From the IMG/VR virus record IMGVR_UViG_2537562194_000033: 27,095 nucleotides of DNA. The stretch is one strand, 5' to 3'. This DNA comes from a virus (lineage: Duplodnaviria > Heunggongvirae > Uroviricota > Caudoviricetes). Positions 1 to 20,672 of the stretch are shown here, in pieces; positions within the stretch are counted from its first letter, which is position 1, and every line of letters starts with the position of its first letter. The notes under the pieces were generated by a model, which was given only the letters and a program-made list of their open reading frames with translations, searched no databases and was not told the DNA's origin. A program made the position numbers and the translations under genes.

Positions 1-501
1 CCGATATGTCTTCCATGCAGTCAGTAACGATGCCTCTTCCTCCGTCGCAATATCCAAATCTACGGCATCCTGAAGTGGCGCAATATGCTCACTGGCCATC
101 TGCATCAGGCTGTTTTTTGTTTCTTCCGCCTTCCGGATCCGGAACAGTTTTTCTGCTTCTGCATCTTTCACCCAGGCTGTGCCGTTCCACTTCTGAAACT
201 CCCCTTCCGGGGATAACCAGGTGACATTTTCCGGTAATGGGCCAAGTTCAGAAATAAATAACGCGTCGCCGGAAGCCACGTCATAGACGGTTTTTCCCCG
301 ATGGTCTTCAACGAGATTCCACGATGCCTCATCACTGTTGAAAACGGCCACGAAGCCAGCCGGAATATCTGGCGGGGCAATATCGGTACTGTTTGCAGGC
401 AGACCTGTATGAGGTGGAATGTATGCATCACCTTCACCAATAAACTCATTGGTTCCGGTCAGTAGATTATAAATTTTTATGGTCCGTGATTGTTCACTCA
501 T
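1..501 (-). CDS. tail fibre assembly protein (Tfa/gpG-like), 3' end cut by window edge
   Basis: Minus-strand frame is open from ATG at 501-499 to position 1 (checked every in-frame triplet for stops). Start lies 12 nt downstream of the tail fibre gene stop. Translation begins [20 protein letters not shown] and contains an ...[22 protein letters not shown] segment typical of phage tail fibre assembly chaperones. Absent from the ORF track because it has no stop inside the window. Confidence 0.75.
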
Positions 502-512
502 TCTGAATGTCA

Positions 513-2645
513 TTATGCAAGCCTCACAATATAGTTAAATGCGATGTTTTTTACGGTGTTTTCTGCGTTCCCCGTAGCATTAACGGTGATGGTGTGTCCG
601 TGGGGACCAATAATGACAGAATGGGCATGAGCACCAATGCCGATAGTGTGGTTATGGGCACCGATATATACATTGTGAGCATGCCCTCCTGCGCTCGACG
701 TGGTACCTGTACCTAACGCAGCGTTATAACCGGCTGATACACCATTCCCCGCGCCAGTGTGACCAACAGGTATATTGTGTGAATGAGCTCCTGCGCTATT
801 TGTGGTTTTTGTGCCGTAATCAAATGAACTGGTCGTTTTAGTACCGTAATCAAACGACGATGTGGTTTTCGTCCCCAAATCAGTACTGGATGCGCTGGCG
901 CTGTGGGTGTGCGATTTAATGCCGTCCTGTTCCTGAGACAATACGGCACGACCACTGGCAGGTTTGCCCTTGATAGTCCAGCCACGCATATCAGGAATAA
1001 CGCCTGACGGATAAGCGACTGCAAGTTTCGGGTATGCAGATTTGTCAAAAGTCTGCCCCTGCATCAGGGCATAACCAGACGGAACGGTATCTGATGGCCA
1101 CGGAATCGGTGCACCGACTGGATAAAACTCTTCAGGAGGATGAGCCGAGGTGTAAAGCTGCGCCCACGGCGACCAGTTTGCGTCGGTCGTATCCCGTCGT
1201 GAACGAATAAATGCCGGAGCATGAGCACCGCTTATACCACTCCAGCCGATGAGTAATTCGCCTTCGCCAACGGCTGTCATCCCTTTCAGGTGAATGATAT
1301 TTCCATACGTTGTTGGATATCCGTTGTTATACGCCTCGTATAACTCCAGACCTGTGGCCCCCTGCATATTATCTGTCAGGGCGGTCAGCCGACCTTTTGA
1401 AGCCAGATTAACTGACGATACTGCTGTCCCATCTGACGGTAACGCCCCGATCTCTGATGCTGTTGGCTTATTCCTGGAGTTATAGTCCCTTCGCCAGCCA
1501 GGAGCATAAGCATCACCATGATTAATATAAGTAAATTGAGCATTAGGGATGCCTTCACCGCTGGATGTACTCGGTGTGGTAATGCGTATGGTCATTGCGC
1601 CGCGGGTGCCAATAACTTCCACAACAGCACCTGCAAGACAAATACTTCCGCAACCTGTATCTGTAATGACCTTATTATTTGCATAAGCCCATGAGCCTTT
1701 GCACATCCAGTAAGGATGGTTAAATGCCCCCTGACTCTCTAGCCAAAAAATCAACTGCGCAGTTGTCCATGCTTCACTATCTCCACCAATATTCAGCTCT
1801 GCACTATATGCACGGCAGGCACCGATATTTTTCGTAAAGGTGTCTTTATCAGAGATATCCTCACCATTCTTAGCTTTCTGCAGACGTTTTTCAGCATTGT
1901 CATAGGCAGCTTTTACTGCATTTGAAGTTGCCGCCAGCGTTTCAGATGTACTGTTGGTTGCACTGCTGAGCTGGACTATCCCTTTTCGTGCCGTCGTGGC
2001 GTCCTGAGCGGTATATTTTCCGTTAGCCAGGTCATACGCGGCCTTAACCGCTTTCGGCGTTGCGGCCAGCGTTTCAGAATCGCTGTTAGTGGCGCTACTG
2101 AGTTGAACAAAGCCTTTTGCGGTCAGCGAGGCATCCGGGTGACGTCGTGACTGTTCATGCTCTTTCAGTTTGTCATCCACGTAATCCACTGTGGCCATCA
2201 CCATGGTGTTATCCACGGTAAGCGCCACGCTGGCAGTGCTGGATACGGTTAGAATGGTGCGAAATGTTTGTGCACGTCCGGACCCCTCGGCAACGGTTGG
2301 CTTGTAACTTTCGGCAGTATTGCCCACCGCGATTAAATCGCCGTGCTCATCAAATACACCAATTTCCCGGATCCAGAATCCGCCCGTTTCAGGAGGAATA
2401 ACCAGCTCCGCAATAATGCGGTTCTGATGTGTTGCGTCCAGGATGACGCGATTAACAGTGTGTCGCCACACCTCATGCACCAGACGGGTCTGCTTACTGT
2501 CTGGTGTGGGCAACGTGCCGCCACCGTCGCCCACGGCCATATGAGTCAGGCGGACAGGCTTACCATCTGGCGCGGCTGCCTGAGCTAATTTTTTTGCACC
2601 CGTATCGGTGATAACGGTTTTAAATTTTCGTGTTGTGGTATTCAT
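513..2645 (-). CDS. H: tail fibre protein (gpH-like), P2-type N-terminal domain with His-box repeat tip
   Basis: 710-aa ORF with ATG at 2645. The N-terminal ~250 aa resemble the P2 gpH baseplate-attachment domain as I recall it (e.g. [21 protein letters not shown], duplicated SSATNS.SETLAAT blocks). The C-terminus carries tandem [10 protein letters not shown] repeats and five GxHxH motifs. Lies directly downstream of gene I. Confidence 0.9.
805..880 (-). repeat. about 2.5 tandem 30-bp repeats inside tail fibre gene H
   Basis: Nucleotide repeat GTTTT.GT.CCGTAATCAAA... encoding tandem [10 protein letters not shown] units. Confidence 0.7.
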
Positions 2646-2647
2646 GC

Positions 2648-3178
2648 TTAATCGTCCGGATAAATGGTAATAACTTCACCGTCATAAGTTGCCGCCGCTG
2701 CGAAAATATCCCCCGGAACTTCCTGAATGATATTCAGCCCTGTCATGTGGCGGCTGACCGGACGGGCATCAGCAATCAACCGCTCCATTTCCAGATACAT
2801 TTCCTCCGTCACGCCACTGTCCAGTGTGCCGACTTCAACGGTAAATGTTCCCGGTTCTCCGCCGAACTCCCACCATTCAGACACGCGAATGAGGTATCCC
2901 AGCGGCTCAATGGCCCTGCGCAGTGCGCTGATGGTCCCTTTGTGTCGGTGTATCAGCCATGCATCACGAATAACCTGTCGCTTTGTCTCTTCCGGCCAGT
3001 TGCGATCCCAGCGGTCAACGGAAAATGCCCAGGCGAGATAAGGCAGCAGGTGCACCGGGCAGGTGTCCGGCGACCACAGCGTGTTGAGGTCTACCGGGAT
3101 GTCTGTAATGCGCGTTCCGACGGCTTCGGCACAACGCATGAAATTGCTGGCTGATGGTGGTAACAACGAATTACTCAT
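2648..3178 (-). CDS. I: baseplate assembly protein gpI
   Basis: Start moved to the internal ATG at 3178 ([13 protein letters not shown]...), giving 176 aa. It overlaps the stop of J by 8 nt, as expected in a P2 late operon; the track ORF start at 3211 is upstream of that. Confidence 0.85.
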
Positions 3179-4067
3179 TGCGCCCACCTTCGCTGATGGT
3201 GAATGACTCACAGCGCGCCGCCTGTATGTCGCTGATGGCCATATTCTGTGTGGGTTCGATTATCTCCACGCGTTGCACACCGTGCACATGCAGTGCGGCA
3301 GCAATGGCGGACAACGCCACGTCCTGACCGATAAGCCCCTGCTCAGCCAGCCACTTCCTGAACGACGATTCCGCCGCAGCCAGAATAGGTTCGGATTCCG
3401 GGCCGGGGTAAAAGTACAGTTTTGCATTCAGCCGCCATGTCACGATTCTGGCGCTCTGTACAGTAAGGCGGTCGGCCACCGGGCGGGTATCCTCTGCATT
3501 CAGAACGGCGCGAACGGTATTAAGCAACGCCTCCGTTGCTGTGCCGTCGCCTTCAGTGGACAGGATGGAAACCGTCACATTTGCCGGAGACGGACTGATA
3601 GCCCGCGCATCACGCACCAGACCGCTGGCGCTGCGGGCAAAATACTCGTATGCACCTGACGGGCCAGCAACACTCAGGCCATCGTACGCCCGCTGCGCCC
3701 GCAGTCTCAGCGAGGTGTCACTTTCCATCACTGCGTCGGTGGTATCCGTTGCCGGAGTGATGGTCAGGCGCTTTGTGTTCATATTGCCCGCGAGGTTGTC
3801 CAGGTCTGTCCCGGCGCTGTGGCTTAACATGCAGGCGCGTGCCCCCTCGTTAACCCGCTGGCGTAACAGCATTTCACGAAACGACATGGTTTGAGCGATA
3901 ACGTTAAGGGGTTCCGATTCCAGCTCCAGCGCGGCGGAAACGGCTTCACGCTGTTCGGCGGGATAAGCCGCAATCATCATGGCCTTTGTGTCAGCCAGAA
4001 TTGCCTCAAAGTCAGGCTCCGCGATGATGGCGGGGTCCGGTAACTGTGAAAGGTCAACGGCGGGCAT
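3171..4067 (-). CDS. J: baseplate wedge protein gpJ
   Basis: 298-aa ORF with ATG at 4067 and a GGGAG ribosome-binding site 9 nt upstream. Size and position between W and I fit P2 gpJ. Confidence 0.85.
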   Translation of the reverse strand: MPAVDLSQLPDPAIIAEPDFEAILADTKAMMIAAYPAEQREAVSAALELESEPLNVIAQTMSFREMLLRQRVNEGARACMLSHSAGTDLDNLAGNMNTKRLTITPATDTTDAVMESDTSLRLRAQRAYDGLSVAGPSGAYEYFARSASGLVRDARAISPSPANVTVSILSTEGDGTATEALLNTVRAVLNAEDTRPVADRLTVQSARIVTWRLNAKLYFYPGPESEPILAAAESSFRKWLAEQGLIGQDVALSAIAAALHVHGVQRVEIIEPTQNMAISDIQAARCESFTISEGGRNE

Positions 4068-4070
4068 GAT

Positions 4071-4421
4071 TTACTCCCTTAGCGTGATGGTTAATTCAAC
4101 ATTCTGCATGGTCTGCATGACAGTGCCCGACAGCGTCACCCCGGCGCGGCCTCCCGCTTTCCAGACAACGTCGATGGCATCCAGGGCAATGCGGGGTTCC
4201 CATCGTGTCAGCGCAATCACGGCAGCACTCATGCATTGCAGACGCGTGGTGTTATTCATGGGTTCGTCAATCAAATCAGGCACAAGGCTGCCATATTCCC
4301 GTCGCATAACCCGGCTTGCCAGCGGGGTGGTCAGGATATCCCTGACTGACTGTTTCAGGTGCTCCATATCGTTCAGGTTTCCCGTTCCGTCCGGGTTCAT
4401 TCCTGTGTAGCGGGTTGTCAC
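4071..4421 (-). CDS. W: baseplate protein gpW (gp25-like)
   Basis: 116 aa starting MTTRYTGMN from a GTG at 4421 that overlaps the V stop (GTGA). Size and N-terminus match P2 gpW as recalled. Confidence 0.85.
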   Translation of the reverse strand: MTTRYTGMNPDGTGNLNDMEHLKQSVRDILTTPLASRVMRREYGSLVPDLIDEPMNNTTRLQCMSAAVIALTRWEPRIALDAIDVVWKAGGRAGVTLSGTVMQTMQNVELTITLRE

Positions 4422-5000
4422 TGCGGGCCTCCTGTCGAATCGCTGCCACCTTTAACGCCACCGTGCTTATGCGTATGCACTGTGATGCCGTTTGAGGTGA
4501 AATCGCCGCCGCTGTGCGTGATATTGCCGCTCATCTTTCCTCCTTTTGTGACGTCAAGCGTCGCCGTTCTCAGAAGGTTTGTGCATTCCACGACAGGTGT
4601 GTCCAGCGTCACACTGACGGATGCCTGCAGGGTGGCCGTTTTCATGCCGCTGGCGCTCAGTGCGCCTGCGTCCGCGTCGTAGCGGAACACCGCGCCATCC
4701 GGCGCGCTGATCACGATTTCTTTCAGGCTTTTGCCGGGTGCCGGAATGGCATCACTCCACAGACTGCCAATTATCATGGCGGTTTCCGGGTTGCCGCCGA
4801 TGCAGGCAATTACCACCTGTTCGCCGGGTGATGGCGGCAACCACACATTGAAGGCACCCGCGCGCGTGGTGTTCCAGCGCAGCCAGCCTGTTTCCAGTTC
4901 GCCGCTGCGAACGCGCACGCACCAGGACTTCCTCATCAACTTCAGAGATGATCCCGGTACGGATGATGTTGCTCAGCAGTCGCATGAGTTCAGCGCTCAC
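4418..5000 (-). pseudogene. V: baseplate spike/assembly protein gpV, apparent +1 frameshift
   Basis: The N-terminal part (MSAELMRLLSNIIRTGIISEVD...) is in the frame of 5000, and the rest (..CVRVRSGELETGWLRW..PPSPGEQVVI..) is in the frame of 4939. Together they reconstruct a typical gpV, but the span is 583 nt, not a multiple of 3. The shift maps to about 4925-4945. Confidence 0.6.
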
Positions 5001-5632
5001 CGTACAGCCTCCGCAATCCGGCCCAGCACCGTGTTATAAATCAGGCGCTCATCTGCCTGGCTGATACCCAGCAGCTCACGTACCGGGTAATCGGTGAAAA
5101 TGCCCGGCGCAACCTGATCGCGCTCACCGAACTGATGAACGCGGGCAATACGTGCGGCCACGCCGCTGTAACCCACCGTCACACCGGAAGCATCTGCACG
5201 GGCTTTCAGGTAGCGGGCGGTGCGCAGTTTTACGAACATGGGGACGCGCTTTGTGCTGTCCTGGTTGATGCGCCGGGTGCGTATTTCCAGAAAACGGTCG
5301 ATGTCATCCCGGTAAAACGTGCGGATATTGTTTTTATCCTCATCCCACCCGGTAATGGTTCGCCCGTATTTCCCCGTGTCGTGATGCCAGTTTTTCAGCG
5401 TGCGTGCTTCGTTATTCCAGATAAAGCGAATGCGTTCCTGTATCCGGGTTACGCGGCGTCTGCGTGGTGTCCACGCGGTCCCGTCCGGCGCTTTCTGTGA
5501 CCGGATACGCGCCTGCTGGGCGCGGCGTAAATCCTGTGCCAGCTTTCTGGCGATGTTATTGATGGCCTGCTGATTCAGGCTGTCGCGGATGGCCTCAAAG
5601 GTTTCATCCACGCGGGTGAATGCCTTATCCAT
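4997..5632 (-). CDS. S: virion morphogenesis / tail completion protein gpS-like
   Basis: ATG at 5632 (MDKAFTRV...); the track start at 5641 is a GTG. Conserved QQARIRSQKAPDGTAW, KLRTARYL and VGYSGVAARIARVHQFG blocks fit the P2 S family as recalled. Carries an internal insertion relative to that recollection. Confidence 0.8.
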   Translation of the reverse strand: MDKAFTRVDETFEAIRDSLNQQAINNIARKLAQDLRRAQQARIRSQKAPDGTAWTPRRRRVTRIQERIRFIWNNEARTLKNWHHDTGKYGRTITGWDEDKNNIRTFYRDDIDRFLEIRTRRINQDSTKRVPMFVKLRTARYLKARADASGVTVGYSGVAARIARVHQFGERDQVAPGIFTDYPVRELLGISQADERLIYNTVLGRIAEAVR

Positions 5633-6092
5633 CGCTTTCACCCCACGTCACATCCTGGAATACATGCGACCAGTCGCCTTCGGGAGATGGCAGGCGGGGT
5701 TTTGGCTCCGGCAGGTGTTCTGCCTGCGGCGCGCCCTGACTGCTGCGCGTGATGCGAACGCGTTCCCGCAGGGGGAGCGTAAACAGGAGATCGGCGCTGT
5801 CATCGTCATTGATAACAGCGGAGAATTTGATGTCCTGATTACGCTCCGGATTGAGCAACAACTGCGGCTGATTTTCGGATAACCACGCCAGCAGCGGCAG
5901 CGTGAGGTCGTCCAGCTCCCCGGCGTAATCCATGACAAACATCACCATCTGATAGCGGTAAACAAACGAGGGAGTTTCTCCGGTCGTTTCAATGTTGCCG
6001 CTCTCCACGAAAATGGTGAATTTTTCCGGGTTGGCCTGACACCATCGGCATGAACGGGTCATGGCTTCACGCAGGGAATCAGTTTTCAGCAT
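5625..6092 (-). CDS. R: tail completion protein gpR
   Basis: 155 aa, overlapping the start of S by 8 nt, in the P2 R position downstream of the lysis genes. Confidence 0.8.
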   Translation of the reverse strand: MLKTDSLREAMTRSCRWCQANPEKFTIFVESGNIETTGETPSFVYRYQMVMFVMDYAGELDDLTLPLLAWLSENQPQLLLNPERNQDIKFSAVINDDDSADLLFTLPLRERVRITRSSQGAPQAEHLPEPKPRLPSPEGDWSHVFQDVTWGESDG

Positions 6093-6369
6093 GGTTGTTA
6101 TCCTCGTTGTTCAGTCGTTGCAGCCTGCGCTGTTCCAGTAATTCAATGGCCCGTTTATCCGCGTTACAGGTTTCCAGTGCATCCAGAAGGCGGTCGCCCC
6201 ATATACCGAGATTTCCCCATGTGGGAGTGTCAGGGAAGGGGGGAGGCGTTACCGGTATGGTCAGCGTCTGCGGTATAAGCCGGACTGACGGCGCTGGCAG
6301 TGGCGCGTTCTGCGTGCCTGCGCAACCTGTCAGTAAAACGAGCGTCAGGCAAAGCGTGGGCGCATTCAT
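6079..6369 (-). CDS. lysC: outer-membrane lipoprotein spanin (LysC/Rz1-like)
   Basis: Start set to ATG at 6369, giving 96 aa: MNAPTLCLTLVLLTGCAG has a lipobox (LTGC) followed by a Pro-rich segment. It begins inside lysB in another frame and runs past its end, the overlapped spanin arrangement of P2. Confidence 0.8.
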   Translation of the reverse strand: MNAPTLCLTLVLLTGCAGTQNAPLPAPSVRLIPQTLTIPVTPPPFPDTPTWGNLGIWGDRLLDALETCNADKRAIELLEQRRLQRLNNEDNNHAEN

Positions 6370-6637
6370 CTTTTGCAATATCGTTGCGTAGCTGTTCACG
6401 TCTGACCTCTCCGTCCTGATTGCGTTGCTGATTTTCCACGCGGAGTTGCGCCAGCACCTGCTGCATATCCTGTACCCCGGCGCTGATGATATTCAGGGTG
6501 TCGGCGGTACTTTTCAGGGTGCTGGCCTGTGCTTCGTTTCTGGCGTTCTCCCGGCCCAGCGACCAAGACAGACGCATGGATGTTCCCCATCCGGCAATCA
6601 GAAGGAAAGCGACGCCAAGCGTGGGCCAGAGCTTCAT
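6230..6637 (-). CDS. lysB: inner-membrane spanin (LysB/Rz-like)
   Basis: Start set to ATG at 6637 (MKLWPTLGVAFLLIAGWG, an N-terminal transmembrane helix followed by a coiled-coil-like, charged region). The ATG overlaps the endolysin stop (ATGA). The longer track ORF from 6781 is rejected. Confidence 0.8.
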   Translation of the reverse strand: MKLWPTLGVAFLLIAGWGTSMRLSWSLGRENARNEAQASTLKSTADTLNIISAGVQDMQQVLAQLRVENQQRNQDGEVRREQLRNDIAKDECAHALPDARFTDRLRRHAERATASAVSPAYTADADHTGNASPLP

Positions 6638-7026
6638 GCCGGATAGGCTCCGTGTGGTAACTGAAAATGCGGTCCGTCTTTCAGAGTCTTCCAGTCGCCG
6701 CCCCATTCCACCGGAATATTCAGTTCCCGGCTGGCCTGTCTGAATGCTGCTGCGATTTTTTCGTACAGCGGCCATTCCCATGACACCTGGCTGCCGATAT
6801 AAGCCACAACATCCACGGCATGCCCCGTAAGGTGGCGGCTGTTCATGGTCTGGCTCTTACCCGTGGCCACCAGTTGCTTCTGGCGGTAACGGCTGCGCAA
6901 CCCTTCGGTGATACCAAAATCCACTTCCGAGATTTCCAGTGCCCGTCGGGTCACTTTCACCAGATCAGGATTTACGCCCTGCAAATTCTTTTCGCTCCGG
7001 CTGCTGAATTTAAATGTGTTGCTCAT
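6634..7026 (-). CDS. endolysin, peptidase M15-type (L-alanyl-D-glutamate / D-Ala-D-Ala peptidase fold)
   Basis: 130 aa with SRHLTGHAVDV and WGGDW...PHFQL zinc-peptidase motifs. The ATG at 7026 overlaps the holin stop (ATGA). Confidence 0.8.
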   Translation of the reverse strand: MSNTFKFSSRSEKNLQGVNPDLVKVTRRALEISEVDFGITEGLRSRYRQKQLVATGKSQTMNSRHLTGHAVDVVAYIGSQVSWEWPLYEKIAAAFRQASRELNIPVEWGGDWKTLKDGPHFQLPHGAYPA

Positions 7027-7361
7027 TCGTTCTTCTCCTTCACCCTGCGATTAAAGGCCGCAATAACCTTGTCGCGTGCTTTCTCTGCACCCATAAAACC
7101 GATTGATGCGCCGATAAACGTCACGGCATCTTCAGGAAACCCGAAGAAGCGCAACGACCCGGCCACGGCCATGGCAAGAACGCCGCACGCCAGCGATCCC
7201 GTTACGGTCTGAACCAGTGTTCGTCCGTCATAAAGACTCATCAGCGCGGAAATGCTGACCGCCGCGCCTACTGCATACACCGTTGGCAGGTGGTCAAAGA
7301 GCCACGCAATAACCTGCTCTGTGATCCCTGTTTGAATGGTGCTCACTGCTACTTCCCCCAC
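7023..7361 (-). CDS. putative class I holin
   Basis: 112 aa with three hydrophobic segments and a charged C-terminus (EKARDKVIAAFNRRVKEKNE), immediately upstream of the endolysin. The start is a GTG at 7361 and is uncertain. Confidence 0.65.
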   Translation of the reverse strand: MGEVAVSTIQTGITEQVIAWLFDHLPTVYAVGAAVSISALMSLYDGRTLVQTVTGSLACGVLAMAVAGSLRFFGFPEDAVTFIGASIGFMGAEKARDKVIAAFNRRVKEKNE

Positions 7362-7549
7362 AACTGAATCATTTCTCGTTTCTTCTTCTCCGGCTCCGGC
7401 ATCTCAACTTCCTGCCCGGCGTCCAGAAATACCTGCTGACAGAGTCCGGGGTTGGCATCCAGCACCTTTTCGGTGACGCCCTGCGTCGTGCCGTAGTACC
7501 GGAAACAGAGCGAATCCACGGTGTCGCCTTCCAGTGCCTTCACTTTCAT
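7349..7549 (-). CDS. X: tail protein X (LysM-like)
   Basis: Start set to ATG at 7549 (MKVKALEGDTVDSLCFRYYG...LWGK), 66 aa. Close to P2 gpX as recalled. The ATG overlaps the L stop by 1 nt. Confidence 0.85.
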   Translation of the reverse strand: MKVKALEGDTVDSLCFRYYGTTQGVTEKVLDANPGLCQQVFLDAGQEVEMPEPEKKKREMIQLWGK

Positions 7550-8043
7550 CAGCACAACTCCGCAAAGATTCGCGGGCGGCACAGAATGTCAGAGATGGCC
7601 CAGCTCACATCACGCCACAAATCCGATGTCTGTATATCCAGAGCGTCCGCCCGGCGGTCGCCCTTGTCCGTTGTGTCTGCATCACGATAACGCTCCAGAA
7701 TCAGGGCGCGCGTGGCGGTATAAACAGCATTGCGCCAGTGCCAGAGATTGACGCTTTCTCCGTTAATTACAGGGGCCGGAACATCGGCCAGCGTCTGATG
7801 GCCAGCTGCCTGCTGTTCCTGCTGCCATGCTTCCAGCTCGCGGGTAACGTGTGCCACAGCCCCGGTGGCAGTATGCAGCAGGCGGGAGGTGGTCACGCGG
7901 CCCGGCAGTCGTACCGCCAGACGCAGCTCGCGCAGCACAATATCCGGCCAGAATGCACCCGCTGAAATGCGGGTATCGCCATCATCGGTATCGGTGATGT
8001 CGTCCTCTGCGGGTCTGGGTTCAGTTCTGGCAACCATACTCAT
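7549..8043 (-). CDS. L: head completion/stabilisation protein gpL
   Basis: ATG at 8043 with an AGGAG ribosome-binding site 9 nt upstream (the track start at 8052 is a GTG). 164 aa, in the P2 L position. Confidence 0.8.
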   Translation of the reverse strand: MSMVARTEPRPAEDDITDTDDGDTRISAGAFWPDIVLRELRLAVRLPGRVTTSRLLHTATGAVAHVTRELEAWQQEQQAAGHQTLADVPAPVINGESVNLWHWRNAVYTATRALILERYRDADTTDKGDRRADALDIQTSDLWRDVSWAISDILCRPRIFAELC

Positions 8044-8057
8044 GGGGTTCACTCCTG

Positions 8058-8129
8058 AAAAAAATCGGGCGGTGGGTGCGCGGTGTAAACGGTCACGGAG
8101 TCAAACCGGAACACCGCGCACGCCGCCCG
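8058..8129 (-). terminator. long GC-rich inverted repeat plus U-run between M and L (putative attenuator)
   Basis: On the minus strand, CGGGCGGCGTGCGCGGTG ... CACCGCGCACCCACCGCCCG (one mismatch, ~26-nt loop) followed by AUUUUUUU, immediately before the ribosome-binding site of L. Confidence 0.4.
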
Positions 8130-8145
8130 CTGACGGGGTCAGTCG

Positions 8146-8946
8146 TTAACCGCGCTTCGCCTTCTGCGTCGCGGTGGTTTTTCGTGTTGCAGGCTTCCGC
8201 GTTGTCTTTTTACTTTTGCTGCTTTCGTCCTGCGCCTGCTGTGCGCTGGCGTCTTCTGGTTCGGCTGCGGAATCGGCTTTTTTCAGGGCGCGGGAAAGGG
8301 TTGCAATCTCGCGTTTCACACCTGCGTTCGGGTTCAGGTGCATCGCTTCGCGCAGCAGCTTCAGTGATAAGGCCATGTTGTCTGCATCGGTCAGACCACG
8401 ACGGGCAAAGGCGCACGCCTTGCATAATTTGGCGCGCACTTCGTCCGGCATGTCCTGGTCGGTGACAATCTCCCGGAGGGTATCCAGTGGTTCGATAAAG
8501 GCGGATAAATCCGCGTCGGCATCCGTCCCGGCCTGCGTCAGTACCGGGTTGCAGATTTCTTCGGTCAGTACCGTGGCAGCAGTACGGCCAAAGTTATCCG
8601 GCATAATGAGGTTATGACGGACCACATACGCACCAATACGCAGCGCCAGCGGAAGATCGCCGCAGTCAATCGCCCACACCATCAGCGTGGCAATCACTTC
8701 ATCCTGCTGCCCGCCGTCAGCCTCCAGCGTTCCCTCAATCCAGCCGGAAAAGTCCGGCAATAACTCTTTTTTGATGGCGGCTTTCGCGCTTCTGGCCTGT
8801 ACGCCCTTAAGCCGGGCCTGTGCCAGACGCAGACGATACAGCACCTCTTCATGCGCGGTACGCGCGGCGTGGTCCACGCCTTCATTCGCCCGGCCTGCGC
8901 GCTGTGCCATCACGTTCTGCCAGTGTTGCTGTGCAGGAGTAATCAT
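8146..8946 (-). CDS. M: terminase small/endonuclease subunit gpM
   Basis: 266 aa, ATG at 8946 with a GGAGAG ribosome-binding site. Position between capsid N and L fits P2 gpM. Confidence 0.8.
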   Translation of the reverse strand: MITPAQQHWQNVMAQRAGRANEGVDHAARTAHEEVLYRLRLAQARLKGVQARSAKAAIKKELLPDFSGWIEGTLEADGGQQDEVIATLMVWAIDCGDLPLALRIGAYVVRHNLIMPDNFGRTAATVLTEEICNPVLTQAGTDADADLSAFIEPLDTLREIVTDQDMPDEVRAKLCKACAFARRGLTDADNMALSLKLLREAMHLNPNAGVKREIATLSRALKKADSAAEPEDASAQQAQDESSKSKKTTRKPATRKTTATQKAKRG

Positions 8947-8963
8947 TTTTTCTCTCCGTTACA

Positions 8964-8982
8964 GGCGGGCATGATGCCCGCC
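8964..8982 (-). promoter_or_regulatory. GC-rich hairpin between capsid gene N and terminase gene M
   Basis: GGCGGGCAT-G-ATGCCCGCC palindrome, not followed by a T-run. Possibly a transcript-stabilising or processing hairpin. Confidence 0.3.
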
Positions 8983-8991
8983 GTGAGTTGA

Positions 8992-10044
8992 TTAGCTGTC
9001 GGCGAACTTCAGGCCAGTGACCATCGCGCACTTGCCATAGTCTTCAACGACATAAGCGTCATTGATGGACTGGTAGGTGGCGAGGCGGTTGTATTCCGGT
9101 TCGTCTTTCATCAGGCGACGCATTGAACCTTTCTGCCAGTAAATCGACAGGTTGTTGAACGAGGTGATCAGCATCGTTGCATCCGGGAAGAACGGCGCAA
9201 GGAACACGCCCAGCCCGCCAATGGTGCGCGATGACAGGATGAGCTGCCCGGCAAGTAATTCCGCATTGGGATTCTGGCCGCTGATGCTGTTCAGCACGGG
9301 CAGACGCAGCGAGTTAAACAGGTTGCGCCCCATAATCACCACGAGGTCGTCAGCTTCCTTGTGCCATTCATCCAGCAGGGATGAGCGTGCGTCCTGTACC
9401 AGTGCATCAGCGTTCGCATACTTACCCGCGTGCGCCACGGTGTTGTCCATGTTGCGGGAGGTCAGCGTCACGTCATTCATAACGCGCTCGCTGGCGTCGG
9501 TTCTGATGTGCTCCAGCCAGCCCACGTTAACGTCCTGAAGCAGCTTGTTGGTGCTGAAGTTGGACTCATCCGCGTGAGACGTGCCGTTGAAACCGATCAT
9601 GATGCGGTCAAGCGCCACCTGTCGGGCAATCTGTGCGCTGATGCGGGACTGAAAATCAGGATGTGCCGCCCAGGCATCAAGCTGCGGATATGAAATAAAC
9701 GTGTCGTAGTTCACCTGTTCGCACTGGTATTTGCGGTTTTTCAGATCAACCACGTTATTCGGGTTACGGCGTTTTGTGCCGTCATAACTGGTATTCGTGC
9801 GCGCAATCGGTCCTGTGGTATCCAGGAGGATTTTTTCGCCTTTCTGGTCGGTCACGCCGATCACGTTAATTCTTTTTGTAAATTCGGTGCTTTCCTTTGA
9901 GGCGTTTTCAAAACGCTGCTGCACCGAGGGTTCTACGGTAAATCGCGATACCAGCGCAGAAACCGGGATATTATTAAGCGACGCCTGCTGCGCCATATAG
10001 CAACCCAGCTTGTTGCGGGTAATATCTGACATCACCAGATTCAT
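8992..10044 (-). CDS. N: major capsid protein gpN
   Basis: 350 aa with conserved FTVEPSVQQ and C-terminal YVVEDYG blocks, as in the P2 N family as recalled. Confidence 0.9.
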   Translation of the reverse strand: MNLVMSDITRNKLGCYMAQQASLNNIPVSALVSRFTVEPSVQQRFENASKESTEFTKRINVIGVTDQKGEKILLDTTGPIARTNTSYDGTKRRNPNNVVDLKNRKYQCEQVNYDTFISYPQLDAWAAHPDFQSRISAQIARQVALDRIMIGFNGTSHADESNFSTNKLLQDVNVGWLEHIRTDASERVMNDVTLTSRNMDNTVAHAGKYANADALVQDARSSLLDEWHKEADDLVVIMGRNLFNSLRLPVLNSISGQNPNAELLAGQLILSSRTIGGLGVFLAPFFPDATMLITSFNNLSIYWQKGSMRRLMKDEPEYNRLATYQSINDAYVVEDYGKCAMVTGLKFADS

Positions 10045-10067
10045 AAAAAATTTGCTCCTTTGTCTTA

Positions 10068-10904
10068 TCAGAAGTCAGCCAGCTGGTCGGAGGCTGCGCC
10101 CGTTGCGGTGAACCGGTTCTGCGGATCGCCGTCCTGCGTGCGCAGTTTTTCCTTCAGTGCTGTCAGCTCTGTGGTCAGTGACGTAATTTTCTGGCGGTCC
10201 TGCTGATGGCGGGTTTCCAGCACATTAAAACGGTCGATAATGTCGGCCTGTGACGTTGCGACGCCTTCCACCGCTTCCTGAATACGGGAAAAACTGGCGT
10301 CATCCGCTTTGCGGCCACGGCCAATAATCCCCATTACGCGGTTAAACCACTGGGTGCCTTCTTCCTGGCGTTGTTCTGCCATTTCGATGATTTCAGACTC
10401 GATGGCTTCGGAGATAAGCGGCGCTTCACCCTGGACACTGTTGAACGTCATTACCGCCTGACGTTGCTGTGCCGTGAATTTCAGGCGCTCAGTGCCCAGG
10501 CTTGCCGGGGTGTCGGTCATCGCCAGCCCGACCAGATAGGCGCGCCCGTTAACGGAGAACTGCGGGTGCAGTTCGATACTGGAATAGATTTTCTTGCCGT
10601 CCGCGACAAGCTGCTTCATGCGCTCGGTCGGTTCGATTTCTGCATACAGCGCAGTACGTCCGGCCAGCGGACCTTCCGTAATGTCTTCCGTACTCAGTGC
10701 GGTGACATCGCCCATTGCGGAAAATTCGCTTGACGGGCATGGCGAGAGATAGTGCTCAACGTTCACGCGGGCAGCGTAAACATCCGGGTTGAAGTTCTCG
10801 GCGGCTTCACGCAGATGCACCGGACTGATTTCACGGCCATCAACAGTTGATCCGGAGACAGCCACGCGAAACTTTTTGCGGGATGTCTTTTTTTCATTAG
10901 CCAT
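10068..10904 (-). CDS. O: capsid scaffolding protein gpO
   Basis: 278 aa, first gene of the minus-strand late operon, divergent from P. Confidence 0.85.
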   Translation of the reverse strand: MANEKKTSRKKFRVAVSGSTVDGREISPVHLREAAENFNPDVYAARVNVEHYLSPCPSSEFSAMGDVTALSTEDITEGPLAGRTALYAEIEPTERMKQLVADGKKIYSSIELHPQFSVNGRAYLVGLAMTDTPASLGTERLKFTAQQRQAVMTFNSVQGEAPLISEAIESEIIEMAEQRQEEGTQWFNRVMGIIGRGRKADDASFSRIQEAVEGVATSQADIIDRFNVLETRHQQDRQKITSLTTELTALKEKLRTQDGDPQNRFTATGAASDQLADF

Positions 10905-11059
10905 AGTTTTTTGCCCCTCTGACTGGTTCTTCAGTCATGATGGCAAAGCGTAACAGGCTGATACAAAGGGCTTTTGTTGTAAGAAAACGGCCAGAACAGG
11001 GGGTTAAGGAGAACGGTTTCGCGCGCGGGTAATCTTCCTGTAATTACTCAGGGGGAGCA
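10905..11059. promoter_or_regulatory. divergent late promoter region (P-Q operon rightward, O-onward operon leftward)
   Basis: 155-bp gap between divergent O and P. In P2 this region holds the Ogr-activated late promoters. I could not identify an exact TGT-N12-ACA activator site by eye. Confidence 0.4.
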
Positions 11060-12811
11060 ATGATTCAGGACGCTTTTGTGCGCCAGCGTGCGCGGCAACT
11101 TTACTGGCAGGGTTATCCGCCCGCAGAAATATCACGTCTGATGGGAATAAACCCGAACACGATTTATGCGTGGAAAAAACGCGACCAGTGGGATGAAACG
11201 CCACCCGTGCAGCGTGTCACGCAGTCCATCGATGCGCGCCTCATCCAGCTTACTGAAAAACAGAATAAAACAGGCGGTGATTTTAAGGAAATAGACCTGC
11301 TGACCCGGCAGCTTAAAAAGCTGCATGATGGCCATCCGGATGTGATGGCCGCAGGAAAGAAAGGCCGGGCGAAAAAACTCAAAAATCATTTCACGCCGGA
11401 ACAGATTGCCGCACTGCGGGAAAAAATCATCAACAGGCTGGAGTGGCATCAGCGGGGCTGGTTTGACTCCCTGACCCTTTGCAGGGAAGCCGGGATACGT
11501 AACAGGATGATCCTGAAATCCCGACAGATTGGGGCGACCTGGTATTTTGCACAGGAAGCACTGCTGATGGCGCTGCGTGACGATGTGGCGCAACCTTACC
11601 AGCGTAACCAGATTTTTTTGTCTGCGTCGCGTCGTCAGGCGTTCCAGTTTAAAAGCATTATTCAGAAGGCTGCGGCTGAAGTTGATGTGGAGCTGAAAGG
11701 GGGCGATAAAATCATCCTCTCCAATGGCGCAGAGCTGCATTTTCTCGGCACTTCTGCTGCGTCGGCACAGTCCTATACGGGCAATTTTTATTTTGATGAA
11801 TTTTTCTGGGTCAGTCGCTTTGCTGAACTGCGCAAGGTGGCTGGCGCTATGGCAACCCTCAGCGGACTGCGGCGCACCTACTTCTCCACGCCATCCACCG
11901 AAACGCACGAGGCATACGCCTACTGGAACGGCGACCGCTGGAACGAGAAAAAGGCCTTGCATAAACGCCAGCGTTTTTCTGTGGACTGGAAAACGCTGCA
12001 TAACGGGCTTATCTGCCCTGACCGGACGTGGCGGCAAATTGTCACGCTGGAAGATGTGGTTAATCACGGCTGGAAACACACCGATATCGACGAAATTCGT
12101 GATGAAAACACCGAAGACGAGTTCCTCAATCTCTATATGTGTGAGTTTGTCCGCGAAGGGGAATCGGCATTTAACCTGAATATCCTGATTGGCTGCGGTG
12201 TTGACGGATACGACGACTGGAAAGACTGGAAACCTTTTGCTCCCCGCCCGATGGGGAATCGTCCGGTATGGATTGGGTATGACGCAAACGGCAGCAGTGG
12301 CAACGGCGACAGCGGCGCTGTGTCTGTGGTGGTTCCTCCGGCTGTTCCTGGTGGCCGTTTTCGAACGGTGGAGACGCGACGCGTTCAGGGGCTGGAGTTT
12401 GAAGAACAGGCCAGAGTCATTGAAGAGTTCACGTGTCGCTACAACGTGGAACACATCGGCATTGATGTGACGGGCGGGAACGGGGAGGCTGTTTATCAGA
12501 TAGTGAAACGGTTTTTCCCTGCTGCTATTCCGTACACCTTCACGCTGTCATCAAAACGGTCGCTGGTACTGAAAATGCTGCAAATAATGCGTGCCGGGCG
12601 GTGGGAATACGATCGCGCCGAACGCGAGCTGGTCGCGGCCTTTAACGCCGTGCGTAAGGTGAAAACACCGGGCGGCTTTATCACTTACGAAACGGACCGC
12701 GCGAGGGGGATCAGCCACGGCGACCTTGCGTGGGCAACCATGCTTGCTGTCATTAACGAACCAATTGGCGGCGAAGGAGAAAACGAGCGTTTCACGGTTA
12801 TGGAGTTCTGA
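11060..12811 (+). CDS. P: terminase large (ATPase) subunit gpP
   Basis: 583 aa, ATG at 11060 after GGGGGAG. Contains a KSRQIGAT Walker-A-like motif. Size and position fit P2 gpP. Confidence 0.9.
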   Translation: MIQDAFVRQRARQLYWQGYPPAEISRLMGINPNTIYAWKKRDQWDETPPVQRVTQSIDARLIQLTEKQNKTGGDFKEIDLLTRQLKKLHDGHPDVMAAGKKGRAKKLKNHFTPEQIAALREKIINRLEWHQRGWFDSLTLCREAGIRNRMILKSRQIGATWYFAQEALLMALRDDVAQPYQRNQIFLSASRRQAFQFKSIIQKAAAEVDVELKGGDKIILSNGAELHFLGTSAASAQSYTGNFYFDEFFWVSRFAELRKVAGAMATLSGLRRTYFSTPSTETHEAYAYWNGDRWNEKKALHKRQRFSVDWKTLHNGLICPDRTWRQIVTLEDVVNHGWKHTDIDEIRDENTEDEFLNLYMCEFVREGESAFNLNILIGCGVDGYDDWKDWKPFAPRPMGNRPVWIGYDANGSSGNGDSGAVSVVVPPAVPGGRFRTVETRRVQGLEFEEQARVIEEFTCRYNVEHIGIDVTGGNGEAVYQIVKRFFPAAIPYTFTLSSKRSLVLKMLQIMRAGRWEYDRAERELVAAFNAVRKVKTPGGFITYETDRARGISHGDLAWATMLAVINEPIGGEGENERFTVMEF

Positions 12812-13857
12812 TGAGCAGAAAAAATAAAAAAGTGCGCATGAGTTCACGCATTGATCTCGCTGATGCGCTCAGGAAAGAATCGTCGCTCAGTGCATTCACT
12901 TTTGATGGTCCTTATCGCCTGACCGGGCATGATTTGCTGGACAATATGTACTGTGCTGATAACGGGCGGTGGTATGAAACCCCGGTGGACTGGTACGGTC
13001 TGGCAAGAGCCGCCCGGCAAACGTCCTGGCATCAGTCTGCGCTTTACTTTAAGCGCAATGTATTGCTCGGCTGCTATATTCCGCACCCGCTGCTTTCCCG
13101 GCAGGATTTCTCGGCGCTGGCGCTGGACTGGTTTGTGTTCGGTAACGCATTCCTTGAGCTTCGAAGCAATATGCTCGGCGAACCGCTTAAATTACGGCAC
13201 GCCCTGGCGAAATACATGCGACGCGGAAGCGATCTTGAATCATGGTGGTATGTGCAGGATGGCAAGGATGCGTTTCAGTTTCGCCCTGGCAAAGTGTGCC
13301 ACCTGATGAATCCGGATATTAACCAGGAAATCTACGGCATGCCGGAATATCTTGGCGCATTACTCTCGGCCAGCCTTTCTCATTCGGCGGACATGTTCAG
13401 AAAACTGTATTACGACAACGGATCCCACGCCGGGTGCATCATCTACATCGGTGCAGCGCAGGTAAACCGCGAAAGCATGGACTCCCTGAAAGAAACGTTA
13501 CAGGGTGCGCGTGGTGGTGGTGCATTTAAAAACGTGCTCATTCATGCGCCCAACGGGGGCAAAGAAGGTGTGCAAATTTTGCCGTTCCAGCAGATCACCG
13601 CAAAGGATGAGTTCATGAATGTTAAGGCGGCATCCCGTGATGATGTACTGGCTGCGCACCGCGTTCCGCCGCAACTGATGGGGGCGATGCCGGGTGAAAA
13701 AAGTGCGTTTGGTGATGTGGAGAAGGCCGCGCGGGTTTACGCAATTAACGAGCTGATGCCCGTCATGGAGGCCATGAAGCACATCAATGACTGGCTTGGC
13801 GAAGAGGTGATCCGCTTTAACCCTTACGCACTGTTAGATACCCAGCCCACATCCTGA
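12811..13857 (+). CDS. Q: portal protein gpQ
   Basis: 348 aa, ATG overlapping the P stop (TGATG). Last gene before the cos region, as in P2. Confidence 0.9.
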   Translation: MSRKNKKVRMSSRIDLADALRKESSLSAFTFDGPYRLTGHDLLDNMYCADNGRWYETPVDWYGLARAARQTSWHQSALYFKRNVLLGCYIPHPLLSRQDFSALALDWFVFGNAFLELRSNMLGEPLKLRHALAKYMRRGSDLESWWYVQDGKDAFQFRPGKVCHLMNPDINQEIYGMPEYLGALLSASLSHSADMFRKLYYDNGSHAGCIIYIGAAQVNRESMDSLKETLQGARGGGAFKNVLIHAPNGGKEGVQILPFQQITAKDEFMNVKAASRDDVLAAHRVPPQLMGAMPGEKSAFGDVEKAARVYAINELMPVMEAMKHINDWLGEEVIRFNPYALLDTQPTS

Positions 13858-14311
13858 CGCGCTTCGCTTGTCTGCTGCTTCGCCGGGGCATAAAAAATTT
13901 ATGCCCCGACTCTCCAGCTCCTGTATCAGTCAGATAATTTCACGACGCTTTCCTGCTTATTGCCATCATCGACGGTCAGACTCTTACGCAATCCCACTGC
14001 GCTGACTGCATGTTCTCGCCGCCTCAGTGCGATTTTGACGGCCTTATCTTCCACCCCATCAAATCAAAAGCCCTCACGTATTTTTCACGCTCAGCGTGAG
14101 AAATACGGCCATTCTGTCGTGTCGCTGCGACATCGTTAAGGGAACGCTATTTACCCCCTGAAACGCGGGCTGTTCCCCCGTCACCTGCGCACAGGAAAAA
14201 CGCGTTTTTTGTGCACGCACGGATCCTTGACGGATCCAGCCGCCATGCGGGCCGGAAGGGCAAAAAGTCGTTCAAAAAAATTGTGCAAATTTGTGCACTT
14301 TTGTGCAAAGA
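13858..14311. other. cos / packaging region (position inferred from gene order only)
   Basis: Non-coding stretch between the portal gene and the cargo operon. In P2 the cohesive ends lie just beyond Q. Contains a perfect palindrome GGGGCATAAA-AAA-TTTATGCCCC at 13884-13906 and a GGATCC-N5-GGATCC motif near 14222-14238. The exact cos cut site was not identified. Confidence 0.3.
14209..14307. repeat. TTGTGCA(A/C) direct repeats, three at exact 10-bp spacing plus one upstream
   Basis: TTGTGCA at 14209, 14281, 14291 and 14301, each preceded by a T or A tract. Confidence 0.6.
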
Positions 14312-14336
14312 AATGCCCCTCAAATTGAGGGGCATT
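14312..14336 (-). terminator. putative intrinsic terminator of the cargo operon
   Basis: AATGCCCCTCAA-A-TTGAGGGGCATT inverted repeat starting 14 nt after the protease stop, followed on the minus strand by TCTTTG. Confidence 0.5.
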
Positions 14337-14349
14337 ATGTCTTGAAGGA

Positions 14350-16575: not shown

Positions 16576-16598
16576 ACATACTCCTTATCTATGCTGTA

Positions 16599-17720
16599 TT
16601 ACATTTTTTGACTGTATTTTCTAATTGTATCCCTACTGACTCCGGTTAAGTCTGATATGGCATGCTGGGATAATTTAGAATTTCTTTTTAGAGTAACTGC
16701 AATTTCTTTACGTTCATTCCTGTCTAATTCTGATAAACCATCTTTAATGAACGACCCAATCAACTCTTCATCTGAGGAAATACCTAAAGCGACCGAACGT
16801 CGGAATTTGTTGATAGAACGCTCAATATTACTAAAAGATTCATTTTTGAACATAATAGCCAGTAGATCTATCCAACGTGCAAAAATCGCGTAGTCGGGAC
16901 CCGAAAAGCGTTTAATTGCTTCTTTAATACTTTCGCTATCTGGCTTCTCAAAATTGAGCACTAAATCAAAACGTCTCCATAGTGCTGGATCAATCAACTC
17001 AGCGAAGTTAGTTGCAGCAAGTAGCAAACTAGAAGACGGCCATTCGTCAACCTCCTGGAGTATCACGGTAACAAGTCTTTTTAATTCTCCAACATCAGAA
17101 TCATCACTTCTCTTTTTGGCGATTGAATCAATTTCATCTAACAGAAGAACGCACGGCCCTTTCTTCGCAAAATCTAGAGCTGCCCGAAGGTTATTTCCGC
17201 TTTTGCCCAGATAGCTGCTCATTACTGCCGTTAAATCAAGAACGTAAAAAGGAACCCCTAATTTCTGAGCTAACCAGCTTGCCGTAAGTGTTTTACCGAC
17301 ACCCGGAGGGCCAACAAAAATGGCAGAGCGTGTTGGTTGTAAGCCGAGAGTCTTGAGGCGATCGATGTGCTTCCGCTCAAGAATAATTTGATCCAGTGAG
17401 TCTTCTATCTGACTGGACAGTAGAGGTTTGCTCACAATCTTTTCATTTGGTGCTTTAAGCAAGGTAAGCCTTGACTCCTCGTCCACAGGCATGGTTTGAG
17501 GCAGCGCTTGTTTTGGTGCGGTAACCTTACGCAGGCTTTGTGCAGGCTTTTGCGGTTTATTTCGTAGATAAAGATCAAGCTGCTCGGATAGAGCAGGCAT
17601 AGTTTCCCGATATTTACGCACCAAGCGAGCGACATATAACCGAACGTCATCATACTGTTCAGTTATTACCAGTCTAACTAGTTGGGCTAAATCTGACTGA
17701 ATACCACCTAAGTCGCCCAT
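16599..17720 (-). CDS. AAA+ ATPase with C-terminal HTH-like tail (IetA-like?)
   Basis: 373 aa, ATG at 17720 with AAGAGG upstream. Walker A GPPGVGKT (K143), Walker B VLLLDEID, sensor-1 AATN, RR at 249-250. The last ~25 aa (SKLSQHAISDLTGVSRDTIRKY) look like a helix-turn-helix. Stop is 23 nt before the protease start, so the two are an operon. Confidence 0.85.
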   Translation of the reverse strand: MGDLGGIQSDLAQLVRLVITEQYDDVRLYVARLVRKYRETMPALSEQLDLYLRNKPQKPAQSLRKVTAPKQALPQTMPVDEESRLTLLKAPNEKIVSKPLLSSQIEDSLDQIILERKHIDRLKTLGLQPTRSAIFVGPPGVGKTLTASWLAQKLGVPFYVLDLTAVMSSYLGKSGNNLRAALDFAKKGPCVLLLDEIDSIAKKRSDDSDVGELKRLVTVILQEVDEWPSSSLLLAATNFAELIDPALWRRFDLVLNFEKPDSESIKEAIKRFSGPDYAIFARWIDLLAIMFKNESFSNIERSINKFRRSVALGISSDEELIGSFIKDGLSELDRNERKEIAVTLKRNSKLSQHAISDLTGVSRDTIRKYSQKM

Positions 17721-20666: not shown

Positions 20667-20672
20667 AGTGAT

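What the first reader, a model, noticed from the sequence alone, without database searches (positions are those of the whole stretch)
4900..4960. Baseplate gene V is split by an apparent +1 frameshift
The conserved N-terminal segment (…NIIRTGIISEVD) is in one frame and the conserved continuation (CVRVRSGELETGWLRW…PPSPGEQV) is in the +1 frame. Total length from the start at 5000 to the stop at 4418 is 583 nt, not divisible by 3. This is either a genuine inactivating mutation, consistent with a decaying prophage, or a sequencing error.
Basis: seen in the sequence. Interest (0 to 1): 0.5.

Follow-up and report, generated by a model that had tools for sequence, protein, structure and literature searches.

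The report
Assembly-artefact frameshift in prophage spike gene
The broken baseplate-spike gene V is really in this sequence, but the one extra base almost certainly arose when a draft assembly merged two near-identical P2-like prophages of one E. coli O111 strain, so it is neither a mutation nor a recoding signal.

Summary
Gene V (minus strand, 5000..4418, 583 nt) is split by one extra base at window 4928, gene strand GAGGAA[G]TCCTGG. Removing it gives a 193-aa P2 gpV-type spike protein that aligns without gaps to P2 gpV (PDB 3QR8).

The lesion is very probably not biological.
- The window is bases 2-27096 of draft contig AEZV02000049.1 of E. coli O111:H- JB1-95.
- The finished genome of O111:H- 95JB1 has two P2-like prophages, A and B. 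They share about 11.9 kb at 98.7% identity, and gene V is intact in both.
- The draft contig alternates between A and B alleles in about 25 runs, with no private substitution. It joins A's tail-fibre end to B's early region.
- It is 100% identical to 95JB1 in all single-copy sequence.
- Its only private difference is the extra G.
- At that site A reads GAGGAATCC, B reads GAGAAGTCC, and the window reads GAGGAAGTCC, the union of both alleles.

The insertion is absent from 1,011 complete E. coli genomes and from every other collection searched. The best reading is a consensus artefact of a collapsed repeat (about 0.9). A genuine mutation has about 0.06 and programmed frameshifting under 0.01. Interest is low.

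The parts
4418..5000 (-). Gene V, the P2-type baseplate central spike. It is 583 nt here and 582 nt in all relatives. The GTG start overlaps the stop of gene S, and its TGA stop overlaps the GTG start of gene W.
4928..4928 (-). The extra base: G on the gene strand, C on the + strand. It can equally be written as the G at 4931/4932 when aligned to the B allele. Window GAGGAAGTCC is the shortest common supersequence of allele A (GAGGAATCC) and allele B (GAGAAGTCC).
4752..5000 (-). Upstream ORF of 82 aa: 24 native gpV residues followed by 58 out-of-frame residues. It has no Pfam hit.
4418..4939 (-). Downstream ORF holding the rest of gpV: OB domain lacking profile positions 1-14, spike trimer and apex motif. 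The draft annotation calls it as 166 aa from GTG 4918.
1909..13820 (.). Stretch shared by prophages A and B of 95JB1 (156 differing sites, 98.7% identity). The window alternates between A and B alleles in about 25 runs, with switches as close as 9-16 bp, and has no private substitution.
245..1908 (.). Tail-fibre segment unique to prophage A and 100% identical to A. Bases 1-244 instead carry, at 20 of 20 informative sites, the allele of the tail-fibre-assembly gene on plasmid p95JB1A.
13821..27095 (.). Part specific to prophage B (IetA/IetS, replication gene, early genes, IS1203, C, int). It is 100% identical to B, except for two A-type patches inside the replication gene (18516-18849 and 19875-19971), where A and B are 97% alike.

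Best explanation
The extra G in gene V is a consensus artefact of a collapsed repeat in a draft assembly. E. coli O111:H- JB1-95 / 95JB1 carries two P2-like (phage P88-like) prophages. A lies near btuC and B at pdxB. Their late regions share about 11.9 kb at 98.7% identity. The draft assembler merged reads from both copies into one contig, and the consensus picked the A allele at some sites and the B allele at others. At the one site where the alleles differ by GAA versus AAG, the difference can also be written as one deleted plus one inserted G. There the consensus kept both optional Gs, adding one base and breaking the frame.

Shown directly: the window is that draft contig; it is a pure A/B blend; the site is the union of both alleles; both copies are intact in the finished genome.

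Inferred: the step in the consensus caller (flow-space or otherwise indel-tolerant) that kept both bases, and that JB1-95 and 95JB1 are the same isolate.

Biologically the strain most likely makes normal gpV from both prophages.
For: 1. Source. L133 from contig AEZV02000049.1 (GCA_000194355.2) is an exact substring of the window, with contig coordinate = window + 1. AEZV is the JCVI draft of O111:H- JB1-95 (PMC3359367).
2. Pure blend. Over 1909-13820 the window matches A or B of finished 95JB1 at all 156 informative sites (73 A, 83 B). There are 0 private substitutions and 1 private indel, which is this base. The same holds in the replication gene and at the left end.
3. Controls. Prophage B of 95NR1 is pure B. 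SA31-1 is B plus more than 20 private SNPs. 8B has one long A tract. Real lineages therefore look different from the window.
4. Chimeric joins. The contig joins a tail-fibre end unique to A to an early region unique to B plus the pdxB flank. These lie about 790 kb apart in the finished genome.
5. Accuracy elsewhere. There are 0 mismatches or indels in 13821-17955 and 20364-27095, and 0 in the contig's last 0.2 kb of int plus 3.6 kb of pdxB-dedA flank.
6. Union site. Only 4 of 22 compound A/B sites allow a +1 'union' and the insertion sits at one of them. A random 1-nt insertion would be union-type with p = 0.005, 177 of 35,686.
7. Uniqueness. The insertion allele occurs in 0 of 1,011 complete E. 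coli genomes that carry the gene and 0 times in viral, genome and metagenome contigs. The intact pattern occurs in at least 120 viral contigs. The truncated 166-aa product and the mosaic Rep protein occur on this one contig only.
8. Finished genomes. 95JB1 and 95NR1 were assembled from PacBio reads and indel-polished with Illumina reads (PMC6602927). Gene V is annotated intact in both prophage copies of 95JB1 and in the pdxB prophage of 95NR1.
Against: - No reads were available, so coverage of about 2x and the absence of the 10-mer in raw reads are not shown.
- That JB1-95 and 95JB1 are the same isolate rests on the names, the serotype, the same IS1203 site and 100% identity in unique sequence. 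No documented statement of identity was found.
- The sequencing platform and assembler of AEZV02 were not verified, so the consensus mechanism is inferred.
- Strain 8B shows that A-to-B gene conversion may happen naturally in this lineage, so a biological origin of some mosaicism cannot be fully excluded.
Confidence: 0.9

Rival explanations
1. Genuine +1 insertion mutation. The JB1-95 stock really carries a hybrid A/B prophage, made by extensive gene conversion between the two co-resident prophages, and its gene V acquired a G insertion. This would inactivate the spike, and the nearly identical gpV of the other prophage could complement it.
For: Prophage B is already defective, because IS1203 splits cox. 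A second gpV copy would relax selection. Strain 8B has an A-like tract in its B prophage, so gene conversion may occur in this lineage. All other genes in the window are full length.
Against: - It needs about 25 alternating conversion patches, some under 50 bp, with no private point mutation, whereas 95JB1 and 95NR1 have none.
- The insertion would have to fall by coincidence at a site where it makes the union of both alleles (p about 0.005). Mismatch repair of an A/B heteroduplex gives substitutions, not an extra base (inference from established mismatch-repair mechanism).
- The contig joins A-unique and B-unique flanks, which as a real structure would imply a 790-kb rearrangement between direct repeats.
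- The allele is absent from every other sequenced genome.
Confidence: 0.06
2. Programmed +1 ribosomal frameshift or other recoding, so that full-length gpV is made from the split gene.
For: An SD-like GAGGA lies just upstream of the shift point, reminiscent of the prfB stimulator (recalled knowledge). No other evidence supports this reading.
Against: - The shift is not conserved. All of about 1,000 E. coli homologues and at least 120 viral contigs have the uninterrupted 582-nt gene, and they contain the same GAGGA.
- There is no slippery or hungry codon and no in-frame stop at the site. The zero frame runs on for 58 codons.
- There is no homopolymer run that could support transcriptional slippage.
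Confidence: 0.005
3. Random sequencing or base-calling error unrelated to the repeat, for example a homopolymer over-call of G in GAG-AAG to GAGG-AAG.
For: On the B allele the change is G to GG, the kind of error made by flow-based platforms (platform not verified).
Against: The draft has no other indel or mismatch in about 14.5 kb of single-copy sequence. The only error lies inside the collapsed region, exactly at an A/B compound difference.
Confidence: 0.035

Closest known systems
Bacteriophage P2 gpV baseplate central spike (PDB 3QR8, 3QR7, 3AQJ) and phage P88 gp35 (YP_009113078.1)
   Same: After the extra base is removed, the protein is 193 aa with an OB domain, a spike trimer beta-helix and an apex motif. 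It matches 3QR8 at E = 4e-49 with no gap across the site. The gene sits between S and W with overlapping start and stop codons, as in P88. It is 95-98% identical in DNA to P88-like (Xuanwuvirus) prophages.
   Different: In the window the reading frame is interrupted by one extra G. No relative shares this.
Collapsed-repeat or chimeric contigs in draft bacterial assemblies (co-resident, near-identical prophages)
   Same: Two copies at 98.7% identity. The contig alleles alternate between the copies with no private changes. The flanks come from different copies. The contig ends inside a further repeat, the tail-fibre assembly gene shared with the P1-like plasmid. Errors are confined to the shared stretch. 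Other O111 short-read assemblies give 4-12 kb contigs with different A/B mosaics.
   Different: Here the blending also created an indel, because one compound difference (GAA versus AAG) can be aligned as a deletion plus an insertion. Read depth could not be checked.
IS3-family programmed -1 frameshift (IS1203 orfA/orfB, in this same window at 24204-25417)
   Same: Two overlapping ORFs in different frames within one gene.
   Different: The IS1203 shift is conserved and is annotated in RefSeq as a programmed frameshift with a pseudoknot feature. The gene V shift is unique to one draft contig and has no slippery site.

Membership tests
P2 gpV-type baseplate central spike (Phage_base_V + Phage_spike + Apex) | N-terminal OB domain PF04717 | tested here: met
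   Repaired protein residues 14-81, E = 1.3e-14. The downstream ORF alone lacks profile positions 1-14.
P2 gpV-type baseplate central spike (Phage_base_V + Phage_spike + Apex) | C-terminal spike trimer PF18715 and apex motif PF18946 | tested here: met
   Residues 118-170 (E = 9e-25) and 171-193 (E = 9e-7). Aligns to the P2 gpV structures 3QR8, 3QR7 and 3AQJ.
P2 gpV-type baseplate central spike (Phage_base_V + Phage_spike + Apex) | Position between tail-completion gene S and baseplate gene W in a P2-like late operon | tested here: met
   Gene order R-S-V-W-J-I-H, as in P88 and the E. coli prophages.
P2 gpV-type baseplate central spike (Phage_base_V + Phage_spike + Apex) | Single uninterrupted ORF of about 193 aa | tested here: not met
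   583 nt, split at 4928. It is met in every relative examined.
Programmed +1 ribosomal frameshift (prfB-type or similar) | The shift is conserved among homologues | tested here: not met
   0 of 1,011 E. coli genomes and 0 hits in three contig collections carry the insertion. The intact form is in at least 120 viral contigs.
Programmed +1 ribosomal frameshift (prfB-type or similar) | Slippery P-site codon followed by a stop or a slowly decoded codon in the zero frame | tested here: not met
   The site reads GAA GUC CUG GUG. There is no stop for 58 codons, and tRNA-Glu cannot re-pair on AAG (codon reasoning is inference).
Genuine prophage pseudogene | The lesion is reproduced in independent sequencing of the same strain or clone | tested here: not met
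   Finished 95JB1 has intact V in both prophages, and finished 95NR1 has intact V in the pdxB prophage that was examined. Both assemblies used PacBio with Illumina polishing. The truncated product occurs on this one contig only. Caveat: that JB1-95 is 95JB1 is inferred.
Genuine prophage pseudogene | Further degenerative changes in the gene | tested here: not met
   Every other base of gene V equals the intact A or B allele, and the repaired protein is identical to WP_208485334.1.
Collapsed-repeat consensus artefact | Two or more near-identical copies exist in the genome | tested here: met
   Prophages A (2.05-2.07 Mb) and B (2.83-2.86 Mb) of 95JB1 share 11.9 kb with 156 differences.
Collapsed-repeat consensus artefact | The contig is a site-wise blend of the copies with no private substitutions, and its flanks come from different copies | tested here: met
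   73 A-type and 83 B-type sites, 0 private substitutions. The left end is unique to A and the right end unique to B.
Collapsed-repeat consensus artefact | About twofold read depth and mixed bases in the read pile-up over the shared stretch | not testable with these tools
   No access to reads.

The most novel reading that the evidence does not exclude
The mosaic is biological. In the JB1-95 stock the two co-resident P2-like prophages (and the P1-like plasmid) underwent massive fine-scale gene conversion. The +1 base arose at a template-switch junction where the nascent ...GAGGAA end primed out of register on the B template (GAA microhomology). This would have produced a hybrid prophage whose spike gene was inactivated by recombination itself.
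Probability: 0.03. Interest if true: 0.35.

Novelty: not a real feature. Interest (0 to 1): 0.05.

Why it matters
There is little biological significance, because gene V is an ordinary P2-type spike gene and is most likely intact in the organism. The practical value is as a caution. This draft contig (AEZV02000049.1) is a chimera of two prophages, so any pseudogene call, SNP, 'novel' mosaic protein (for example Rep EIH90817.1, or the rare gpV, R and terminase variants) or prophage-decay inference drawn from it is unreliable. The case also shows a recognisable signature: an indel that equals the union of two co-resident alleles. That signature could be used to flag artefactual frameshifts in collapsed repeats.

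Tried and rejected
- Exact look-up of four start variants of the two frameshift ORFs found nothing. The draft annotation had used a fifth start, GTG 4918 (166 aa), which was found later.
- Exact-pattern scans for the insertion allele in genome, viral and metagenome contigs found nothing, even with a shorter degenerate pattern.
- The repair that gives the EKS allele (deleting 4931) is not in the protein collection. The EES repair is.
- The contigs carrying the exact repaired protein (L125, L126) are only 96-98% identical to the window overall, so they are unrelated strains and not the source.
- The phage collection holds nothing closer than 97%.
- A 2-nt deletion was rejected by the gap-free alignment to P2 gpV.
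- De Bruijn bubble-popping was considered as the blending mechanism and thought unlikely, because A/B switches occur 9-16 bp apart. An indel-tolerant per-column or flow-space consensus fits better (inference).
- An Nanopore error near the adjacent Dcm site (CCTGG) was considered. It was dropped once the source proved to be a JCVI draft that a May 2012 paper already lists.
- Internal re-initiation at ATG 4936 has no good Shine-Dalgarno sequence and was not pursued.
- No structure prediction was run, because the fold is already solved for P2 gpV.

Full report
**1. The observation**

On the minus strand a GTG at 5000 overlaps the stop of the tail-completion gene S. It opens an 82-aa ORF (5000..4752) that begins MSAELMRLLSNIIRTGIISEVDEE and then turns into unrelated sequence. 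A second ORF (4939..4418) in the +1 frame reads ..WCVRVRSGELETGWLRW..PPSPGEQV.. and runs to a TGA that overlaps the GTG start of gene W. The distance from start to stop is 583 nt.

**2. Locating the lesion**

The best DNA matches in the phage and E. coli collections all align 621 window bases to 620 subject bases. Multiple alignments with E. coli EC21Z-048, phage P88, O111 11128, 95JB1 and two further contigs show one extra G at window 4928, GAGGAA[G]TCCTGG on the gene strand. Against the P88/95JB1-B allele (GAGAAGTCC) the same insertion can be written as the second G of GAGG at 4931/4932.

Deleting 4928 yields a 193-aa protein identical to WP_208485334.1. It carries Phage_base_V (PF04717, residues 14-81), Phage_spike (PF18715, 118-170) and Apex (PF18946, 171-193). 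It aligns to full-length P2 gpV (PDB 3QR8, E = 4e-49) with no gap across the site. The gene is therefore an ordinary P2/P88-type baseplate central spike with a 1-nt insertion.

**3. The insertion is unique**

- A 71-nt query centred on the site finds 1,011 complete E. coli genomes. None matches at 100%, and the best is 70 of 71 with one gap.
- Exact-pattern scans find the insertion allele in no species-representative genome, IMG/VR contig or metagenome contig.
- The corresponding intact pattern is present in at least 120 IMG/VR contigs.
- This lack of conservation, plus the absence of a slippery codon, an in-frame stop or a homopolymer run at the site, rules out programmed frameshifting or transcriptional slippage.

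**4. The window is a blend of two prophages**

The closest genome is O111:H- strain 95JB1. Window 1909-27095 aligns to its pdxB-integrated P2-like prophage ('B') with 91 mismatches and exactly one gap, the gene V base. The mismatches are clustered.

The same genome has a second P2-like prophage ('A', about 2.05-2.07 Mb). It matches window 1-13820 at 99.25%, including the tail-fibre end that B lacks.

A three-way comparison gives these results:
- A and B differ at 156 sites over the shared 11.9 kb.
- The window matches A at 73 of these sites and B at 83.
- It never differs from both. Its only private difference is the extra base.
- The alleles alternate in about 25 runs, with switches as close as 9-16 bp.
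- In the replication gene, where A and B are 97% alike, two A-type patches sit in a B background, again with no private change.
- The B-unique segments 13821-17955 and 20364-27095 are 100% B.
- Window 245-1908 is 100% A.
- Bases 1-244 carry, at 20 of 20 informative sites, the allele of the tail-fibre-assembly gene on the P1-like plasmid p95JB1A.

Controls behave differently. Prophage B of 95NR1 is pure B. SA31-1 is B with more than 20 private SNPs. 8B has one long A-type tract.

**5. The frameshift site is the union of the two alleles**

A reads GAGGAATCC, B reads GAGAAGTCC, and the window reads GAGGAAGTCC. Deleting one G gives A and deleting the other gives B. Of 22 compound A/B differences, only four permit such a +1 common supersequence, and the insertion lies at one of them. 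Among all 35,686 distinct single-base insertions possible in the shared region, only 177 (0.5%) would be union-type.

Heteroduplex repair or ordinary crossing-over between the alleles would give substitutions, not an added base (inference). A consensus caller that treats the GAA/AAG difference as one deletion plus one insertion would readily keep both Gs when reads of both copies are pooled. Flow-space and long-read-style consensus callers are examples (inference).

**6. Source of the window**

- The window's mosaic Rep protein is EIH90817.1, from 'Escherichia coli JB1-95', and is present on a single contig in the whole index.
- The look-up of encoding contigs returns contig AEZV02000049.1 (130,980 nt) of GCA_000194355.2.
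- Locus L133 from that contig is an exact substring of the window, and contig coordinate = window + 1. The window is therefore the very start of the contig.
- AEZV is the J. Craig Venter Institute draft of O111:H- JB1-95 (PMC3359367).
- The draft annotation calls gene V as a 166-aa product from GTG 4918. That product exists on this contig only.
- The contig's 3.8 kb running from the end of int through pdxB to dedA is 100% identical to finished 95JB1.
- The finished 95JB1 and 95NR1 genomes were made from PacBio reads, polished with Quiver, and indel-corrected with Illumina reads (PMC6602927). Both prophage copies of 95JB1 and the pdxB prophage of 95NR1 carry an intact, 567-nt-annotated gene V.
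- Other O111 short-read assemblies yield 4-12 kb contigs of the shared stretch, with other A/B mosaics and an intact 193-aa V.

**7. Interpretation**

The draft contig is a collapsed, chimeric representation of two prophages that lie about 790 kb apart. It is error-free wherever the sequence is single-copy. Its single indel lies in the collapsed part, at a site where pooling the two alleles predicts exactly the observed string. I therefore read the gene V 'frameshift' as a consensus artefact, with confidence about 0.9.

The remaining uncertainty comes from three points:
- Reads are not available.
- The identity of JB1-95 and 95JB1 is inferred from the permuted names, the same serotype, the same IS1203 insertion and 100% identity in unique sequence.
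- The platform and assembler of AEZV02 are not verified.

A genuine mutation would additionally need about 25 conversion patches without a single point mutation, and a 0.5% coincidence, so I give it about 0.06. A repeat-independent read error gets about 0.035. Recoding gets under 0.01.

**8. If the lesion were real**

The product would be 24 native residues plus 58 out-of-frame residues. A re-initiated fragment would lack the first strand of the OB domain. Translational coupling into W would be lost (inference). Prophage A's nearly identical gpV could complement it. Prophage B is in any case crippled by IS1203 in cox.

**9. Verdict**

It is not a real biological feature and interest is low. 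The useful by-product is a warning that this contig, and the proteins derived from it, are chimeric.

Noticed in passing
window 1-27095 (= AEZV02000049.1 bases 2-27096): The whole window is a chimera of three elements of the 95JB1 genome: the tail-fibre-assembly allele of P1-like plasmid p95JB1A (1-244), prophage A (245-1908) and an A/B blend followed by prophage B. Mosaic proteins deposited from it, such as Rep EIH90817.1, are likely artefacts.
   Followed up: yes
window 24151-25459 (IS1203); cox remnant 23961-24150: IS1203 (IS3 family) is inserted inside the cox gene of prophage B, about 100 nt from its start, with an apparent 4-bp target duplication. The same insertion is in finished 95JB1, 95NR1 and 8B but not in SA31-1. 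It is real and probably disables excision and the lytic switch.
   Followed up: partly
window 24204-24530 and 24527-25417 (+): The IS1203 transposase orfA/orfB overlap is a true programmed -1 frameshift. RefSeq annotates it with a pseudoknot feature in the matching genomes. It is a genuine recoding site in the same window, in contrast to gene V.
   Followed up: no
window 14350-16575 (-) and 16599-17720 (-): An S8 peptidase and an AAA ATPase between the portal gene Q and the replication gene match the IetS and IetA anti-phage defence proteins in PADLOC (E = 1e-51 and 1e-77). This is a defence cargo at the variable locus of the P2-like prophage. It is present in B but replaced by parM and a partitioning gene in prophage A.
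   Followed up: partly
L129 (E. coli O111:H8 strain 8B, prophage at pdxB), corresponding to window ~3849-11958: The pdxB prophage of finished genome 8B carries one long tract of A-type alleles (genes J through N or P). This is either a real gene conversion between co-resident prophages or another assembly mix-up. That assembly also has odd lengths for lysC (270 nt) and X (255 nt).
   Followed up: partly
L134-L138 (Logan SRR14514765, SRR8625765/66, SRR8625907; GCA_011897445.1): Short-read assemblies of other O111-like strains give stand-alone 4-12 kb contigs of the shared late region. Each has a different A/B mosaic pattern, which suggests that repeat collapse at this prophage pair is common.
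   Followed up: partly
window 6079-6399 (-) within 6230-6781 (-): An Rz1-like lysC ORF is embedded out of frame in, and overlaps, the lysB (DUF2570) gene. This is the usual P2 spanin arrangement.
   Followed up: no
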